Positions 1 through 6,000 of a DNA stretch of 64,000 bases are shown in pieces. Numbering within the stretch: the stretch's first letter is position 1; every line of letters begins with the position of its first letter. Origin of the DNA: Podarcis bocagei (lineage: Eukaryota); assembly GCA_964188305.1 (NCBI GenBank), contig OZ076898.1; one strand, given 5' to 3'. Position numbers: made by a program.

Positions 1-3000
1 CGGAAACAGGCCCTGACCCAGCACCTGCACAAGAGGTTATGAGCCTAGAGCTGCTTCCCGACCGCCCCATTCAGGTACAAGAAGTGGCACACCATTCCAA
101 GAAAGATAGGGTCATCTCCCGGGTCCTGGACTGGGTGTGGAGGGGATGGCCCAGCAGCAGCCCCGGGCCAGAATTCGCCGGCTACACAACCCGCAAACAT
201 GAACTGTCGGCCCACAAGGGGTGCCTGTTATGGGGAAGCAGGGTCGTTGTTCCCCAGCCCCTCCGCAAAAGGGTCCTCACAGCCCTACACGAGACACACC
301 CAGGGGTAGTAAGAATGAAGGCCCTTGCCAGGAGTTACGTGTGGTGGCCAGGGATCGACGGAGAGATAGAGGCCTGGGTCAAACACTGCCAGGCCTGCCA
401 AGAATCCCGCCCAGATCCCCCAAGGGCCCCAGTCCAGTCCTGGGAGTCCGCCCGAGCACCATGGTCACGCCTGCATGTGGACTTCGCTGGCCCCTTTCAG
501 GGGAAAACATTCTTCATAGTGGTGGACTCCTACACCAAATGGCTGGAAGTCGCACTGGTACCGTCCACTTCTACGTCCGCAGCCATCCGGGTACTACGCA
601 GGCTGTTTGCAACCCACGGGCTCCCTGACACTCTCGTCTCAGACAACGGGACTGCATTTACGTTTGGAGAATTCCAAACCTTCACAGCACAGAACGCCAT
701 CCGCCACATCCGTTCGGCGCCATTCCACCCTGCCACCAATGGCCAAGCAGAACGCATGGTGCGGACCACCAAGGACACCCTCTGCCACATGACCCAAGGG
801 GATTGGGAGTACCGCCTTGCCACATTCCTCCTAGCACAGCACAGCACCCCCAGCTCAATGACTGGCCGGAGCCCTGCTGAACTACTAATGGGTCGGCACC
901 TTGCAATCAGATTAGACCGCCTTCACCCCGATAGAGCTCAGGATGAGGTAGTGGTGGGGGAAGGCAGGAACCCCCGGACCTTCGAGGCCCAGGACCCAGT
1001 GTACGCAAAGAATTTGGTTGTTGTTTTTTAAATGATATTTTATTAAAGTTTCCAAATTATAACAAAACAAATGAAAAAATAAAATAAAAAAAACATAGAA
1101 AATAGAAACAGTTAAAAACACATTAATTTTCGTAACATATCTTCATACATTATTTCCCCAGACCTCCTCATCCCTCCCTTTTTTGTATTCCAGTTCAATT
1201 TGTTAGTTCAGCAAATCCTTACCATCAAGTTTTTGCCCTATTCTAATCTTTCATTACATTACCTTACTCTATTCTCCTCATTGTCTTATAAAAAACCTTA
1301 ACCTAAAGCTTATTTTTGATAATTTCTCTTAACCGTTATATTCTTTCCTAATCCCTTAAACTTTTATACCAGAGCCAAGCAATTTCATTTCATGCATCCT
1401 TCTAATATTCATCAATTATATAAAATTGTCCTAATAACAAAAGATAAAAGTCTTCATCCAACGTCCCTTCCCCCAGGTCCCGGGTTTGTCAGTCCATTTA
1501 TCCCATTAAGCTGGCACATTAACCTGGTGATCTTATATCCGAGGCTCTTAAATCCCTTCCATGTCCCTTCCACTGTTTTTCTTCATGTTTTCTTTTCACA
1601 CGTGTGGTCTCCAATTTAATAATGCTTTTACCTCCTTCAAACCAAAAGGTCCCTTTTCCACAGTCCAAACTGAGCTCCATGTAGTACTTAAATGCATGTT
1701 TCAAAGTCCCTCCAAAATTTGGGATCCCCATATCTCCAAGCCTCTCACAATCCACTACCACACTCGGAAAGTCCTTATGTCCCTGTTCAGGGGGGTCAAT
1801 CCAACCCCCCATTTCCAGTCCAGTCGAAACTTCATCTTTCCGAGTCTGATTTTTACGAAAGTCAATTGCCAATTCCAAAGGTTCATGTTCCTGCAGGGCC
1901 ACAACCTCCATCTGTGGCTCCATTTCTGACTCCCAAAGTTCAGCAGAATCTTCTTCTTTCCTCTGTTCTGACAAGGCACAGTCCTGGTATAATTCCTGGG
2001 TAAACTCCATACTTTTTTCTACTGCCTGTCCAAGATTTCCCACAGTCTGCTTAAGATTTCCAACCAAATCAGTCATCAAATTCATTCCCTCATGAATTTC
2101 TTCCAGTAAAGCATTTGTTTTGAGAAAAGCACACAACATTTCTGAGCACATTGTCCTTCAAGGTCACCACTCAATTCCCACGGGTTATACTGTAGCGGCT
2201 GGAAATTCCCTAGTTACAGTTTCACTATCCCCCCCTAGAGGGAAAACTTCTGTTACAAATTACAAATCCAGCCCCAAAGTTTCTTTTACTTTTAGATACT
2301 TTGTCTATCGTTGTTATTTTTAAGTTGCAAAAAAAAGACAGTGAAATTCCAGTTTTTTCCCTTCTTTTAGCTATCTGTCAAACAGCTTCTGTCCTGGTCA
2401 ATGAGCTTCAAACGTCAATCCTGACACCCCGCTCCCTGGGTCAGGACGGTGGAAAATTACTTTATTTTAAACTTACTTCTGCAGGTTAAAACAGTTCAAA
2501 GAAAGCACCCCCTTCTCCTCCTGCTACCTAAGGGGGGGTTCAGCTATTTTAGGCGATGAAATCCGCTCCTTTAAAATGATTTTCAAGACTCCAGTTTACT
2601 TTGTCTTTGCTTTGTTCCGACTACAGAAAAACGGAAGGTTGACTTCCTGTTAGACCTTCCGTTTCAGTGCCGAATTGTAATGAATTTTGAGCCCGATTCC
2701 TTTCTTTCCTGATTCCTTGAATTGTGAATCGATTTTCCAAGGTTTAGGTACTCACGATGGTTGTTTTTTTAGAATCCAAATTGTCCAGGAAGAAGGCAGC
2801 GCTCCCCGGCAGCGGCTGTGCGGCTTCGCTCCACGGAAATAGCGGTAGACTCTCAGCACCGCGCCACTTCCTCCTCTTCACTTCGGAGCCCATTATTGGG
2901 TTCCTTTGCGGGTTGGGGGGCGCTAAGGGTGCCCGCCGAGTCCCAAGGTCACAGGCTTCATCCGCCTGTGATTTCTAAAGGGTCCCCGCTTTGCCGTAGC

Positions 3001-6000
3001 GGGAAAGACCCGTTTCTCGCGGAGCTTGTCCCTCCGTTTCAGAGGGAGTCCGCCATTGCCAGTGGCGCCACCCCGGAAGTCCTCCCAGTGTACGCAAAGA
3101 ATTTTGGGGCAGGCCCAGCATGGGTACCTGCCACAGTCACCAGCGTCACTGGCCCCATGTTGTTCGAGGTGCTAACGGATGGGGGGCAATGCTGGCGCCG
3201 CCACTGCGACCAGATACAGCGACGATTCCCAGGAGAAAACCAGAAGGAGGACAGGTCAGAGGAGTCCCAAGGGAACAGTGGGGCAATGAGGCCCATAGAA
3301 CAGGAGGAGCCAGCAGGAGAGGCAGAATCAGTAAATACAGAGAGGACCTGCGAGGCGGAAAGGTCACCGGAACCAGAACCATGACTGAGCGAGCCGGTTG
3401 CACCAGACCAAACAGCCCCATCACAGCCAGCATCCTTGGAACACGAGCCAGAACCTGAACCCCGGACCAAGGAACACCCCAGGCCGCAACGCACATGTAG
3501 GCCGCCGGCGTACCTCGAGGACTATGAATGCGACCTCCCGGGCAGGACTGGAACTTAGAGGGGAGGGGTGTTATGTACTGAGTTGAATAGGATCCAAACT
3601 GCAGCAGTCTGATTGGTCCTAGAACAATAGGATTCAGAATGCAGCAGTCTGATTGGTCCTAGAACAATGCAGCAGTATGACTGGTCGACAGGAACCACCC
3701 AATCATGCTGCAGATAGAAGTGAATCCACAACCTGATTGGCCTACAGGAGAATTCCGGAATTAGCCAATCACGTGCAGCCCATTGTGTAAATAATGTATA
3801 TAAGCAGATACTTTGAGGGGACTTTCATTCTTCCTCCTCACCACTATGAGCGGAATAAAGAGCATGAAATCACTTTGCGACTCTGAGTATATTTCAGTCA
3901 TGCTGGCCACATGACCCGGAAGCTGTACACCGGCTCCCTCGGCCAATAAAGCGAGATGAGTGCCGCAACTGGACTGGACGTAACGGTCAGGGGTCCCTTT
4001 ACCTTTACCTTTTATGCACACCATGAAAGTAAAGCACACTGGCAGCCCTGCAAACATTCATGGCTAAAGAGGGACTCCTACTTCCCGCCCCCAGAGCTAC
4101 CATTTCCACAGAGGCTTAACCAGGGTCTTGCTCACCACTCAGCAACTACAGCTCCCAGAATTCTCTAGGAGAAGCCATGACTGTTTGAAGCAGTATAAAA
4201 GCACTTTAAAAGTATGGTGAGAATGTGGCCTGCAAGCTCTGTAATCAGGCCACAGAATGGCAGGAGGAGCCCACAAAAGGGAAAAAGAAAAACACATCTG
4301 CTAAATTGGTGAGGAAGAAGGGGGCAACGGTGGGGGAAAGGAGGAGGAGGAGGAGACCCCTTTGCCAAGTAACGCACAGCTCATACTTACGTTGGTGAAG
4401 AAGAAGAGGACGCCCGTGAAGAGTGTGACAATCTCCCCGGCGAGACGCAGATAGTCGGTGGTGGTGGTGTACGGGTACGGGGGCTACAGAGGGGAATAGA
4501 CAGTGCTGAGAGGCTGTGCCGAAAGACACCTGCTAAGCACACAGCAATGGCCACGCTCCAACGGGATGGCCAGCTTCAGCATGTTGCCTTCCCAACAGCA
4601 GCTGGGTAAAGAGCACCTCTGGGAAGGTCACAAGGTGATGGAAGGGACTCGTGGGGTCATCTAGTCCAACCCCCTGCAATGCAGGAATCTCAGCTGAAGA
4701 ATCTCTGGCCACCCAACCTTTGCTTAGAAACCTCCAAGGAAGTAGAGTCCTCCACCTTCCAAGGGAGTCTGTTCCACTCTTGAGCAGCTCTTAACCTCCT
4801 TAATGCTTTCTTGTAACTTGAAGGCATTGGTTTGAGCACCCCGCTCCAGAGCAGGAGAAAGTGATCTCCCTCCCTCTTCCCTGGGACAGCCCTTGAGATA
4901 TCGGAAGATGGCTTTCGTGATGCTCATGTGATGGAAACAGCTCCCCCTGCCTCACTCTCAATCCCAAGTGTCAAATCAATGGAGGTGGGTTGTCTTTGAA
5001 CCCGGAGGTGCCATTCTTACCCTATCCATAGATACAATGTCTAATACAGACTTGTTTTATAAGTCAGAGTTTATTCATTGGTGATTTATTTATCTATCCT
5101 GAGCTTGACCCTCTCCAGGGAACTTACAAACTTGTGAGGTAAGTCACACACATACACACCCTCCCTGTCCCTTTGAACCCACGTCTCTCTGTGCTGGAGC
5201 TGCTGCACTAAACTAGGGTGTTTAATTAGCAAGGCCAATTAGGAGCCCATTGCTTGCCTCCCTTAAGCCTGAGGGGCTTCCTCCATTTCACTCAACTCCA
5301 ATACTTCCCCCGCTCCAAGTTAAAGAAGCATTTAGAGATTATAGACTCATAGCATGATGGAATTGTAGACTTCGAAGGAAACCCAAAGGTCCCCTAGTCC
5401 ACCCCCCTGAAATGCAGGGCTGAACAGCTTTTTCACTCCCGATCACTACTTTTCTTGCGGAATTGCCAGACTGAAGTTCTGGGTATAAATAAAGCAAGCT
5501 GATAAGTCACGGGTTCCTCATTATTTACCATGTTCATAGAATCATAGAATAGAATCATAGAGTTGGAAGAGACCACAAGGGCCATCGAGTCCAACCCCCT
5601 GCCAAGCAAATGCCTGATCAAAGCAAATCACTGCACGTTTACCAATCTCTTACCAGCCCCAGCACAGCACATAAGTTTTTTGCTAGGGCATCATGGGAAC
5701 TGAAAATGGGAGGCTGCGCCCCAAACCTCAGAACCCTAATTTAAATCACAGCCACTCTGCCCCGCTCGGCAGCCTTCGTGAGCTCCATGGTGGAGTGGGT
5801 GCAGTACTCACAGTGCCCTCCAGGGGGCGGTAGTAGGCCACCATGGTGAAGATGATCATGGCACAGAGGTAGGAGACCACGCTGATGTAGAATGAAACGG
5901 CCCCAAACTTTCGCCACTTGTCCCGAAGCAGCTCGTTGATGGGCTCTACGGCCAACATTTCGTGGCGGTTCTGCGGGGAGAGGGGCCCGGTGAACAAAGA

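What the first reader, a model, noticed from the sequence alone, without database searches (positions are those of the whole stretch)
1016..3083. Complete 2.07-kb RT-less retroposon with L1-like ends and one orphan coiled-coil ORF
Seen: a perfect 21-bp TSD; a pre-insertion site reading TTTT/GG; a CpG-rich 5' end with ETS (ccggaagt, 3073-3080) and YY1 (cgccatt, 3051-3057) motifs; a ~930-nt leader; an uninterrupted 210-aa ORF; a G-rich then U-rich 3' UTR with AATAAA and an A-rich tail; no endonuclease or RT. Established: L1 endonuclease nicks at TTTT/purine, L1 uses an internal YY1 promoter, and HAL1 elements carry ORF1 only. Inference: a young non-autonomous family mobilised in trans by L1. I cannot recognise the ORF1 RRM in this protein, so it may be a divergent or new product, possibly one that co-assembles with L1 ORF1p.
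Basis: partly seen in the sequence, partly recalled or inferred. Interest (0 to 1): 0.72.

Follow-up and report, generated by a model that had tools for sequence, protein, structure and literature searches.

The report
Lizard retroposon carrying an orphan coiled-coil gene
A 2.07-kb piece of DNA was copied through RNA into a lizard-type genome; it has no copying enzyme of its own but carries one small, conserved gene for a rod-forming protein unrelated to any known transposon protein.

Summary
Window 1016-3083 (minus strand) is a clean insertion flanked by a perfect 21-bp duplication, and it splits an open integrase frame of an LTR element.

It has these parts:
- a 325-nt CpG-rich 5' module;
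- a 932-nt leader whose last 739 nt contain no ATG (2 of 2000 shuffles reach zero);
- one 210-aa ORF;
- a C-poor 3' UTR with AATAAA and a short A6-CAACAACC tail;
- no RT or endonuclease remnant.

The ORF is not L1 ORF1p: 0 of 6 family members hit any L1 ORF1 Pfam family. It belongs to a small orphan family. The only relatives found are three Podarcis lilfordi hypothetical proteins and two unnamed Logan contigs, at 40-59% identity and with the same start and stop.

The N-terminus is a predicted parallel three-chain coiled coil. Its heptad core stays hydrophobic across the family. The C-terminal 16 residues are almost invariant.

My reading is a young, protein-coding, non-autonomous retroposon, most likely driven by L1; an L1 with its own TSD lies in the same window. 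"HAL1-like" fails on homology. The tail also fits reptilian Bov-B (CAA)n ends. A one-off retrocopy of a lineage-specific gene is not excluded. Copy number could not be tested because no eukaryotic genome, Dfam or Repbase was available.

The parts
995..1015 (.). Target-site duplication, copy next to the element's 3' tail
   Evidence: Exact 21-bp match to 3084-3104. It is the only isolated repeat among the 15 exact direct repeats of >=18 bp in the window.
3084..3104 (.). Target-site duplication, copy next to the element's 5' end
1016..3083 (-). The whole 2,068-bp retroposed element
   Evidence: Bounded by the TSD. Blastn finds only the self-hit in the window. It interrupts an integrase frame that stays in phase across the empty site.
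2759..3083 (-). CpG-rich 5' module of 325 nt that ends in A7CAACC; candidate internal promoter and structured leader
   Evidence: GC 0.60-0.65 and CpG o/e 0.68-0.96. The RNA fold has z = -3.33, with 0 of 200 shuffles as stable. The 10-mer AAAAAACAAC occurs twice in the window, here and at the 3' tail.
3073..3080 (-). ACTTCCGG, an ETS-like motif at element positions 4-11
   Evidence: 2 matches in the window, 1.18 expected. The motif name is recalled; function was not tested.
3050..3057 (-). AATGGCGG, a YY1-like motif at element positions 27-34
   Evidence: 1 match in the window, 1.28 expected. The motif name is recalled; function was not tested.
2152..2892 (-). ATG-free stretch of the leader, running up to the start codon
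   Evidence: 0 ATG in 739 nt, against 7.26 +/- 2.18 in dinucleotide shuffles; 2 of 2000 shuffles reach 0. It is the longest ATG-free run on either strand of the window (742 nt; the next is 556). The 503-nt 3' UTR has 17 ATG.
1519..2151 (-). ORF of 210 aa plus its stop; orphan coiled-coil protein
   Evidence: Five relatives of 174-206 aa share the same start, and the four that are complete share the same C-terminal end. No Pfam family is matched.
1924..2148 (-). Residues 2-76: a long helix, predicted parallel three-chain coiled coil
   Evidence: AF2 gives a helix at 2-76 with block pLDDT 57-79. Three copies of residues 1-85 score 0.44 against a best control of 0.00. The heptad core is hydrophobic in homologs in 57 of 74 cells, against 54 of 175 at other positions.
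1522..1569 (-). C-terminal 16 residues (K195-G210), almost invariant in the family
   Evidence: Alignment A3. Each of the five complete sequences differs from the consensus at 0 or 1 of the 16 positions, while overall identity is 40-59%.
1016..1518 (-). 3' UTR: C-poor, purine-rich and then U-rich
   Evidence: Composition A 0.37, C 0.08, G 0.22, T 0.33. The last 150 nt have no unusual RNA structure (z = -0.74).
1039..1044 (-). AATAAA polyadenylation signal, 9 nt before the tail
1016..1029 (-). Tail A6-CAACAACC
3..1015 (+). Host: integrase-coding frame of an LTR element, left of the insertion
   Evidence: Pfam Integrase_H2C2 and rve.
3105..3384 (+). Host: continuation of the integrase frame, right of the insertion
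   Evidence: The frame phase matches and stays open to the stop at 3382-3384. No Pfam family is matched.
51401..54643 (+). Comparator: a 5'-truncated L1-clade LINE with an A9 tail and its own 11-bp TSD (51390-51400 and 54644-54654)
   Evidence: RVT_1 E=5.7e-25. The best PDB matches are LINE-1 ORF2p at E=8e-30, against R2 at 6e-11. TSD; 3' end.

Best explanation
This is a recent insertion of a protein-coding, non-autonomous non-LTR retroposon, made by target-primed reverse transcription.

Shown:
- An RNA-shaped unit was inserted with a 21-bp duplication at a T-rich site. The unit consists of a CpG-rich 5' end, a long AUG-free leader, one ORF, a 3' UTR with AATAAA and a short A-rich tail.
- It encodes no RT or endonuclease.
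- Its ORF belongs to a small lizard-restricted family and is constrained as a protein.

Inferred mechanism:
- RNA polymerase II starts at the element's first bases, using downstream ETS/YY1-like sites. Copies would therefore keep their promoter.
- The unspliced RNA is scanned across about 740 AUG-free nucleotides to the ORF.
- The 24-kDa acidic product forms a parallel (probably trimeric) coiled coil. It uses its invariant C-terminal peptide to dock the RNA-protein particle onto a LINE replicase or a host factor.
- A LINE ORF2 protein supplied in trans nicks the target and copies the RNA. L1 is the most likely LINE.

The element works like HAL1 or Drosophila HeT-A: it has its own ORF and borrows its RT. 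Its protein, however, is not ORF1p.
For: Insertion:
- Exact 21-bp TSD, the only isolated repeat among 15 long direct repeats in the window.
- The host integrase frame stays in phase.
- AATAAA lies 9 nt before the tail.
- The target is T-rich on the primed strand.

No enzyme: the ORF plus 10 other open frames give no Pfam family.

Functional transcription unit:
- 0 ATG in the last 739 nt of the leader; 2 of 2000 shuffles reach zero; it is the longest ATG-free run in the window. The 3' UTR has 17 ATG.
- The 5' module keeps its CpG.

Family:
- Five relatives, three of them on different Podarcis lilfordi contigs and two on unnamed Logan contigs of about 1 kb.
- All are collinear, with the same start and end, at 40-59% identity to the window ORF.

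Protein constraint:
- Heptad core positions are hydrophobic in homologs in 57 of 74 cells, against 54 of 175 elsewhere; 2 of 5000 random position sets reach this.
- A one-heptad indel separates family members.
- Three copies of residues 1-85 score 0.44 against a best control of 0.00. The mark was reached by 21 of 30 proteins solved as pairs of one chain and 0 of 23 proteins solved as single chains. Runs agree in >=90% of contacts and partner pLDDT is >=71. The calibration used two copies and microbial proteins, so it applies only roughly here.

L1 as driver:
- An L1-clade LINE with an A9 tail and an 11-bp TSD is in the same window.
- Both 3' UTRs are C-poor, with a U-rich stretch before AATAAA.
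- Local alignment of the two UTRs scores 38, against 26.1 +/- 4.0 in shuffles; 4 of 300 shuffles reach it.
Against: - No second copy or fragment is in the 64-kb window.
- Only 5 relatives turned up in 5.8 billion protein clusters. Each cluster has one member, and there are no short fragments. High copy number is therefore not shown. This may reflect repeat masking before gene prediction, or a truly small gene family.
- The tail is not poly(A). A6-CAACAACC in an insertion young enough to keep a perfect TSD argues against simple poly(A) priming by a relaxed L1.
- The TSD boundary gives TTT/TG rather than TTTT/AA.
- The last 45 nt match the window's L1 end no better than 2 other sites among the 78 other AATAAA sites.
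- Blastn and tblastx between the element and the L1 find only the U-rich tract.
- The protein is acidic (pI 4.9), and residues 72-210 could not be folded (pLDDT <50). An RNA-binding role is therefore not supported.
- Promoter activity, translation and mobilisation are all untested.
Confidence: 0.5

Rival explanations
1. This is a one-off processed retrocopy (retrogene) of a lineage-specific host gene. The coiled-coil family would be an ordinary small gene family of lizards, and a LINE machinery happened to copy one of its mRNAs into this LTR element.
For: - The unit looks like an mRNA: a CpG-rich start as in a CpG-island first exon, a 5' UTR, one ORF, and a 3' UTR with AATAAA.
- Very few relatives exist. 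Each is unique in its 90% cluster, and there are three diverged paralogs per Podarcis genome (47-75% identical to one another).
- AUG depletion and heptad conservation are equally expected for a host gene.
Against: - The tail is A6-CAACAACC rather than a poly(A) run, although the TSD is still perfect.
- The CDS is uninterrupted in the window and in a 1,038-bp Logan contig that holds a complete homolog. No spliced parent is therefore implied.
- Donor-like and acceptor-like sites remain in the leader. If they are real, the template was unspliced.
- The ETS/YY1-like sites lie inside the copied unit.
Confidence: 0.28
2. It is the same kind of non-autonomous element, but driven by Bov-B (RTE clade) rather than L1. 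The terminal (CAA)n would be the templated microsatellite that this LINE uses to start reverse transcription.
For: - Passages and Table 4 of PMC13295347 state that reptilian Bov-B LINEs, including that of Podarcis muralis, end in (CAA)2-6 and that their TSDs start with A.
- The element ends in A6(CAA)2CC, and its TSD starts with A in the element's orientation.
- AAACAACAAC occurs 3 times in the window against 0.11 expected.
- RTE-clade LINEs lack an ORF1 (same paper), so an ORF supplied by a rider would be notable.
Against: - The paper's Tn-TA signature is absent here. That signature is a T run about 10 nt upstream plus a T just before the first A. The 12 upstream bases here hold a single T, and the base before the TSD is A.
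- This is one insertion only.
- No Bov-B copy was identified in the window with which to compare 3' ends.
- The last 150 nt show no unusual stem-loop (z = -0.74).
- AATAAA 9 nt before the tail suggests ordinary polyadenylation.
Confidence: 0.15
3. It is an internally deleted copy of an autonomous LINE whose own first ORF is this coiled-coil protein (an ORF1 type without an RRM). That would make it a true 'half-LINE'.
For: - The layout of 5' UTR, first ORF and 3' UTR is what a deletion of ORF2 would leave.
- There is weak 3'-UTR similarity to the window's L1 (4 of 300 shuffles reach the score).
- An N-terminal coiled coil is the common feature of LINE ORF1 proteins (recalled).
Against: - A HMMER scan of 1.84 billion representatives at all lengths found no longer protein carrying this domain beside RT or EN. 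The three longer hits are internally repetitive proteins of a tick, a pipefish and a newt, which I set aside as spurious.
- No member hits an L1 ORF1 Pfam family (0 of 6).
- A profile comparison with the window's CR1-type ORF gave probability 0.1%.
Confidence: 0.07

Closest known systems
HAL1 (half-L1) of mammals
   Same: Both are non-autonomous, of about 2 kb, keep a single first ORF and lack ORF2. [quoted passage not shown] Both are presumably copied by L1 in trans.
   Different: The ORF here has no detectable homology to L1 ORF1p. The product is acidic. Derivation of the UTRs from L1 is not shown. The tail is not poly(A).
Drosophila HeT-A telomeric retroposon (recalled, no call)
   Same: A non-LTR element that encodes only a Gag/ORF1-type protein and depends on another element's reverse transcriptase. 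It also has long untranslated regions.
   Different: HeT-A is telomere-specific and its protein is Gag-like with zinc knuckles. This element sits inside a dispersed LTR element, and its protein has no known domain.
L1 ORF1p
   Same: An N-terminal parallel coiled coil, predicted here for three chains. ORF1p is described as a 'coiled coil-mediated trimeric' RNA-binding protein in the abstract of PMC6428221 (seen in the listing).
   Different: No RRM or CTD is detected. The pI is 4.9 rather than basic. It is shorter, at 210 aa.
Processed pseudogenes and retrogenes made by L1
   Same: TSD, AATAAA, loss of flanking promoter sequence, and an intronless ORF.
   Different: The tail is A6(CAA)2CC, promoter-like motifs are retained inside the copy, and the relatives are themselves intronless ORFs at several loci.
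Bov-B-dependent retroposons of squamates (e.g. Sauria SINE)
   Same: A (CAA)n-type end as in reptilian Bov-B, and a TSD starting with A.
   Different: It is Pol II-like, protein-coding and 2 kb long. It has no tRNA head (no Rfam match reaches a family's gathering score in 900-3200; one lncRNA row at 13.9 bits against 55). The Tn-TA signature is absent.

Membership tests
TPRT-made retroposed insertion (LINE-dependent) | Target-site duplication flanking the whole unit | tested here: met
   21 of 21 bp are identical at 995-1015 and 3084-3104. It is the only isolated repeat among 15 long direct repeats.
TPRT-made retroposed insertion (LINE-dependent) | 3' end with a polyadenylation signal and an A-rich or microsatellite tail abutting the TSD | tested here: met
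   AATAAA at 1039-1044 and tail A6CAACAACC at 1016-1029.
Non-autonomous retroposon family | No reverse transcriptase or endonuclease coding capacity | tested here: met
   The ORF and 10 other open frames give 0 Pfam families at E<=0.1.
Non-autonomous retroposon family | Many copies with independent TSDs in one genome | not testable with these tools
   No eukaryotic genome, Dfam or Repbase was available. No second copy is in the window. Only protein-level relatives on other contigs were found.
L1-driven insertion | Nick at a 5'-TTTT/AA-3'-like site (consensus recalled) | tested here: inconclusive
   The primed strand reads AATTT/TGGGG by the TSD boundary. TTTT/GG needs a 1-nt shift.
L1-driven insertion | Pure poly(A) tail | tested here: not met
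   Six A followed by CAACAACC. The window's own L1 has A9.
HAL1 / half-L1 | ORF homologous to L1 ORF1p (RRM and CTD) | tested here: not met
   0 of 6 family members match any L1 ORF1 Pfam family at E<=10. The profile gives 0 PDB chains at E<=10.
HAL1 / half-L1 | UTRs derived from a contemporary L1 | tested here: inconclusive
   3'-UTR local alignment to the window's L1 scores 38; 4 of 300 shuffles reach it. The terminal 45 nt tie with 2 other sites. No L1 5' UTR is in the window.
ORF1p-like chaperone (function, not homology) | Coiled-coil self-association | tested here: met
   This is a prediction only. Score 0.44 against a best control of 0.00; the mark was reached by 21 of 30 proteins solved as pairs of one chain and 0 of 23 proteins solved as single chains; >=90% contact agreement between runs; partner pLDDT >=71. 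The heptad core is conserved.
ORF1p-like chaperone (function, not homology) | Basic nucleic-acid-binding domain | tested here: inconclusive
   Whole-protein pI is 4.9. Only residues 181-210 are net basic (9 K/R against 5 D/E). Residues 72-210 have pLDDT <50.
Bov-B (RTE)-dependent element | (CAA)n terminal repeat and a TSD starting with A | tested here: met
   (CAA)2 and an A-start TSD, compared with Table 4 of PMC13295347.
Bov-B (RTE)-dependent element | Tn-TA target signature | tested here: not met
   There is no T run about 10 nt upstream, and the base before the TSD is A. This is a single insertion.
Bov-B (RTE)-dependent element | 3'-end sequence shared with Bov-B | not testable with these tools
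   No Bov-B copy was identified in the window. The paper's supplements were closed.
Processed pseudogene | Intron-bearing parent gene elsewhere | not testable with these tools
   No genome search was possible.

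The most novel reading that the evidence does not exclude
Squamate genomes may harbour a so far undescribed class of LINE riders. These would be Pol II-transcribed, roughly 2-kb composite retroposons that carry their own promoter module. They would encode a fast-evolving trimeric coiled-coil protein unrelated to ORF1p. An invariant 16-residue C-terminal peptide on that protein would hijack a LINE replicase. If the (CAA)n end is meaningful, the replicase is that of Bov-B, a LINE that has no ORF1 of its own, and the rider would then supply the missing ORF1-like function.
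Probability: 0.3. Interest if true: 0.75.

Novelty: new variant of a known kind. Interest (0 to 1): 0.52.

Why it matters
Non-autonomous LINE riders are nearly always non-coding (SINEs, SVA) or keep the LINE's own ORF1 (HAL1). A rider that maintains an unrelated, constrained protein would show that parasites of LINE machinery can evolve their own RNP component.

It would also give a small, tractable protein for asking what a template RNA needs in order to be picked up by ORF2p (or by the ORF1-less Bov-B). The insertion looks recent: the TSD is perfect and the host frame is intact. This points to ongoing retroposition in a lizard genome.

If the element turns out instead to be a retrogene, it is a clean example of a young, promoter-carrying retrocopy of an orphan gene family.

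Tried and rejected
1. CR1 origin of the ORF's C-terminal half. Tblastn of P0002 hit three CR1-type RT tails in the window (E 0.006-0.012; BLASTP 29% over 59 aa). The profile comparison gave probability 0.1%. Rejected as chance.

2. Longer hits P0005-P0007 in the representative search. These are internally repetitive proteins of a tick, a pipefish and a newt, matched in 5-9 short stretches. Set aside as spurious without further testing.

3. Fold assignment.
- AF2 with 5 sequences gave mean pLDDT 43, and only the N-terminal helix was usable. I therefore ran no fold search.
- ESM Atlas gave scores <=0.78 for the whole protein and no usable hit for residues 95-210.

4. Rfam on 900-3200. One sub-threshold lncRNA row (13.9 bits against 55). 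There is no tRNA, 7SL or 5S head.

5. A shared 3' end between the internal A7CAACC boundary (2759-2770) and the element's tail. The 10-mer AAAAAACAAC is found only at these two places in the window. The 70-nt alignment is not significant, however: 112 of 2000 shuffles reach it.

6. (CAA)n sites at 36816 and 38821 as ends of sister elements. Alignments there are low-complexity only.

7. A structured 3' end as for stringent-type LINEs. z = -0.74, with 53 of 200 shuffles as stable.

8. Literature. Four full-text searches listed no paper describing an ORF-bearing, RT-less retroposon in lizards. That covers only the held open-access library, and I read only the listings beyond the three papers cited.

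9. Not run.
- The prokaryote-only genome-contig collection and the phage, plasmid and E. coli collections are irrelevant to a vertebrate repeat.

Full report
**What is there**

Window 1016-3083 is bounded by an exact 21-bp direct repeat at 995-1015 and 3084-3104. The window holds 15 exact direct repeats of 18 bp or more at 100-6000 bp spacing. This is the only one that is not part of two copies of an interspersed repeat.

The insertion sits in an open reading frame with Integrase_H2C2 (E=4e-17) and rve (E=4.2e-13) domains. By frame arithmetic, that frame continues in phase on the far side of the insertion to a stop at 3382-3384. The host is therefore an LTR element whose integrase gene was still open when it was hit. 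This and the perfect duplication argue for a recent event.

**Anatomy, read on the minus strand**

- **5' module.** The first 325 nt are CpG-rich: GC 0.60-0.65 and CpG o/e 0.68-0.96. GC then falls to 0.36.
  - The module begins with ACTTCCGG at bases 4-11 and AATGGCGG at bases 27-34. Each motif is about as rare as once per window. Reading them as ETS and YY1 sites is recalled knowledge.
  - The module folds far better than shuffles (z = -3.33, 0 of 200 as stable).
  - It ends in A7CAACC, directly followed by a donor-like GTGAGT.
- **Leader.** The leader is 932 nt. It contains three ATGs, all in the first 191 nt. The remaining 739 nt have none.
  - Dinucleotide shuffles give 7.26 +/- 2.18 ATGs, and 2 of 2000 reach zero.
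  - This is the longest ATG-free run on either strand of the window.
  - The 503-nt 3' UTR has 17 ATGs.
  - This is the signature of a leader kept clear for scanning ribosomes. It is the strongest sequence-internal sign that the ORF is translated from the full-length RNA.
- **ORF.** The ORF (2151..1519, 210 aa) fills its open frame from two codons after an in-frame stop.
- **3' UTR.** The 3' UTR is C-poor (8% C), purine-rich and then U-rich. It carries AATAAA 9 nt before a tail that reads A6-CAACAACC.
- **No enzyme.** Neither the ORF nor 10 further open frames of 52-125 aa on either strand match any Pfam family at E<=0.1. No RT or endonuclease remnant is present.

**The protein**

No known family was found:
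- Pfam gives only a sub-threshold BORCS6 helix match (E=0.14, 12.8 bits against a cut-off of 35).
- A scan of all six family members at E<=10 finds no L1 ORF1 family in any of them (0 of 6).
- A family profile finds nothing in the PDB at E<=10.
- ESM Atlas gives no usable lead.

Relatives are few:
- The word-indexed search found 3.
- The exhaustive HMMER scan found 5 hits at E<=0.001. Two are real. I discarded the other three as internally repetitive proteins.
- The profile search found 5 among 5,949 candidates.
- A search among shorter proteins found none among 28 candidates.

The five real relatives are three 'hypothetical predicted proteins' of Podarcis lilfordi, on three different contigs, and two proteins from unnamed Logan contigs of about 1 kb. 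Each is alone in its 90% cluster. They are 174-206 aa long and collinear with the window ORF, with the same start; the four complete ones (196-206 aa) also share its C-terminal end. They are 40-59% identical to the window ORF and 35-81% identical to each other.

Conservation is uneven. An N-terminal block and the last 16 residues are almost invariant, while the middle carries indels.

On structure:
- AlphaFold2 on the 5-sequence alignment gives a single helix at residues 2-76 (block pLDDT 57-79) and no confident fold for 72-210.
- Three copies of residues 1-85 are modelled as a parallel, in-register bundle with a 3-4 spaced contact set from residue 5 to 58. The score is 0.44 against a best control of 0.00.
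  - The mark was reached by 21 of 30 proteins solved as pairs of one chain and 0 of 23 proteins solved as single chains.
  - Runs agree in at least 90% of contacts, and partner pLDDT is at least 71.
  - The calibration used two copies and microbial proteins, so it applies only roughly.
- Independent of the model's confidence, those core positions are hydrophobic in the five homologs in 57 of 74 cells, against 54 of 175 at the other positions between residues 5 and 58. Only 2 of 5000 random position sets reach that.
- The window ORF differs from P0001 and P0004 by exactly one heptad.

The coiled coil is therefore under protein-level constraint. The whole protein is acidic (pI 4.9), and only residues 181-210 are net basic. 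That does not look like a nucleic-acid chaperone of the ORF1p kind.

**Who copied it**

An L1-clade LINE fragment lies at 51401-54643.
- It matches RVT_1 at E=5.7e-25.
- Its best PDB matches are LINE-1 ORF2p at 8e-30, against R2 at 6e-11.
- It has an A9 tail and its own 11-bp TSD.

L1-type retroposition therefore operates in this genome.

Its 3' UTR has the same build as the element's: C-poor, with a U-rich stretch before AATAAA. The two UTRs give a local alignment of score 38, against 26.1 +/- 4.0 for shuffles; 4 of 300 reach it.

Against a specific link:
- The element's last 45 nt score no better against that L1 end than against two other sites among the 78 other AATAAA sites.
- Blastn and tblastx find only the U-rich tract.
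- The tail is not poly(A).
- The TSD boundary puts the nick at TTT/TG rather than TTTT/AA.

There is a real rival. Passages and Table 4 of PMC13295347 state that reptilian Bov-B LINEs, including that of Podarcis muralis, end in (CAA)2-6 and have TSDs starting with A. Both features are seen here. The paper's Tn-TA target signature is not seen here. No Bov-B end was available for comparison, and the paper's supplements were closed. The last 150 nt have no unusual structure. I rate L1 as more likely than Bov-B, but the driver remains open.

**Family or one-off?**

For a self-propagating family:
- Promoter-like motifs lie inside the copied unit.
- The tail is not poly(A).
- The relatives are intronless ORFs at several loci. 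One complete ORF sits on a 1,038-bp contig.
- AUG depletion spans the boundary between the two modules of the leader, so the composite has evolved as a unit.

For a retrocopy of a host gene:
- Relatives are very few, and each is unique.
- Every coding-level signal is equally expected of a host gene.

The deciding count, full-length copies with independent TSDs, cannot be made with these tools. No eukaryotic genome, Dfam or Repbase was available, and the contig collections that might have helped were closed.

**Comparison with known kinds**

The element works like HAL1. PMC5753468, passages read, describes HAL1 as a non-autonomous L1 derivative that encodes only ORF1p. From recall, it also works like Drosophila HeT-A, which has its own ORF and borrows its RT.

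It fails the defining test for HAL1 membership, because the ORF is not ORF1p. It shares with ORF1p only the predicted coiled-coil oligomerisation.

Four full-text searches listed no description of such an element in lizards. That covers the held open-access library only.

**Verdict**

It is a young, RT-less, protein-coding retroposed unit with an orphan, constrained coiled-coil gene. It is probably a member of a small retroposon family riding on L1 (confidence about 0.5). A retrogene (0.28), a Bov-B driver (0.15) and a deleted autonomous LINE (0.07) are the rivals.

Novelty is 'new variant of a known kind', provisional on a repeat-library check. Interest is moderate (0.52).

Noticed in passing
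window 2750-2770 (minus strand): The CpG-rich 5' module ends in A7CAACC, which resembles the element's own tail. AAAAAACAAC occurs only at these two places in the window (0.21 expected; 2 of 100 shuffles reach 2). A donor-like GTGAGT follows at once. This may be the seam of a composite element, but the 70-nt alignment of the two ends is not significant (112 of 2000 shuffles reach it).
   Followed up: partly
window 2784-3083 (minus strand): The 5' 300 nt fold much better than shuffles (-138.5 kcal/mol, z = -3.33, 0 of 200 as stable), with several perfect local hairpins. No Rfam family reaches its gathering score (one lncRNA row at 13.9 bits against 55).
   Followed up: partly
window 2476 and 2246 (minus strand): A second donor-like site (GTAAGT) and a pyrimidine-rich acceptor-like site lie in the leader. 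If they are used, splicing would remove part of the leader. The retroposed template kept them.
   Followed up: no
window 2031-2072 (minus strand), ORF residues 27-40: A tandem seven-residue duplication (one heptad) is present in the window ORF and P0002 but absent from P0001 and P0004. The coiled coil changes length in whole heptads.
   Followed up: partly
window 51401-54643 (+), with 53100-53850: A 5'-truncated L1-clade LINE with an 11-bp TSD and an A9 tail. Its ORF2 region is interrupted by a GC-rich stretch. Several reading frames on both strands of that stretch repeat a short Gly/Pro-rich peptide motif, which suggests a nested tandem repeat.
   Followed up: partly
window 16365-17087, 23421-24143, 26005-26732: Three copies of a CR1-type LINE 3' part, 98-99% identical. 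Two lie in inverted orientation 6.3 kb apart, with open RT-tail frames. This is a recently active CR1-like family. Older copies, 76-77% identical, lie at 33.9-36.2 kb.
   Followed up: no
window 36801-36880 and 38821-38840 (minus strand): Two more A-rich ends carry (CAA)3, after decayed SINE-like sequence. AAACAACAAC occurs 3 times in the window against 0.11 expected. The 36.8-kb site is the best non-self match of the element's last 70 nt among 12,786 tiles (score 44), but the match is low-complexity. These may be traces of the LINE that makes (CAA)n ends.
   Followed up: partly
window 7180-7851 (-) and 47112-47597 (-): There are open frames with ankyrin repeats (Ank_2 E=1e-7) and with part of a glycolipid-transfer-protein domain (GLTP E=8.4e-10). 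They are probably exons of host genes.
   Followed up: no
window 3-1015 and 3105-3384 (+): The host LTR element's integrase frame is open on both sides of the insertion and in phase across it. The host element was itself intact, or nearly so, when it was hit.
   Followed up: partly
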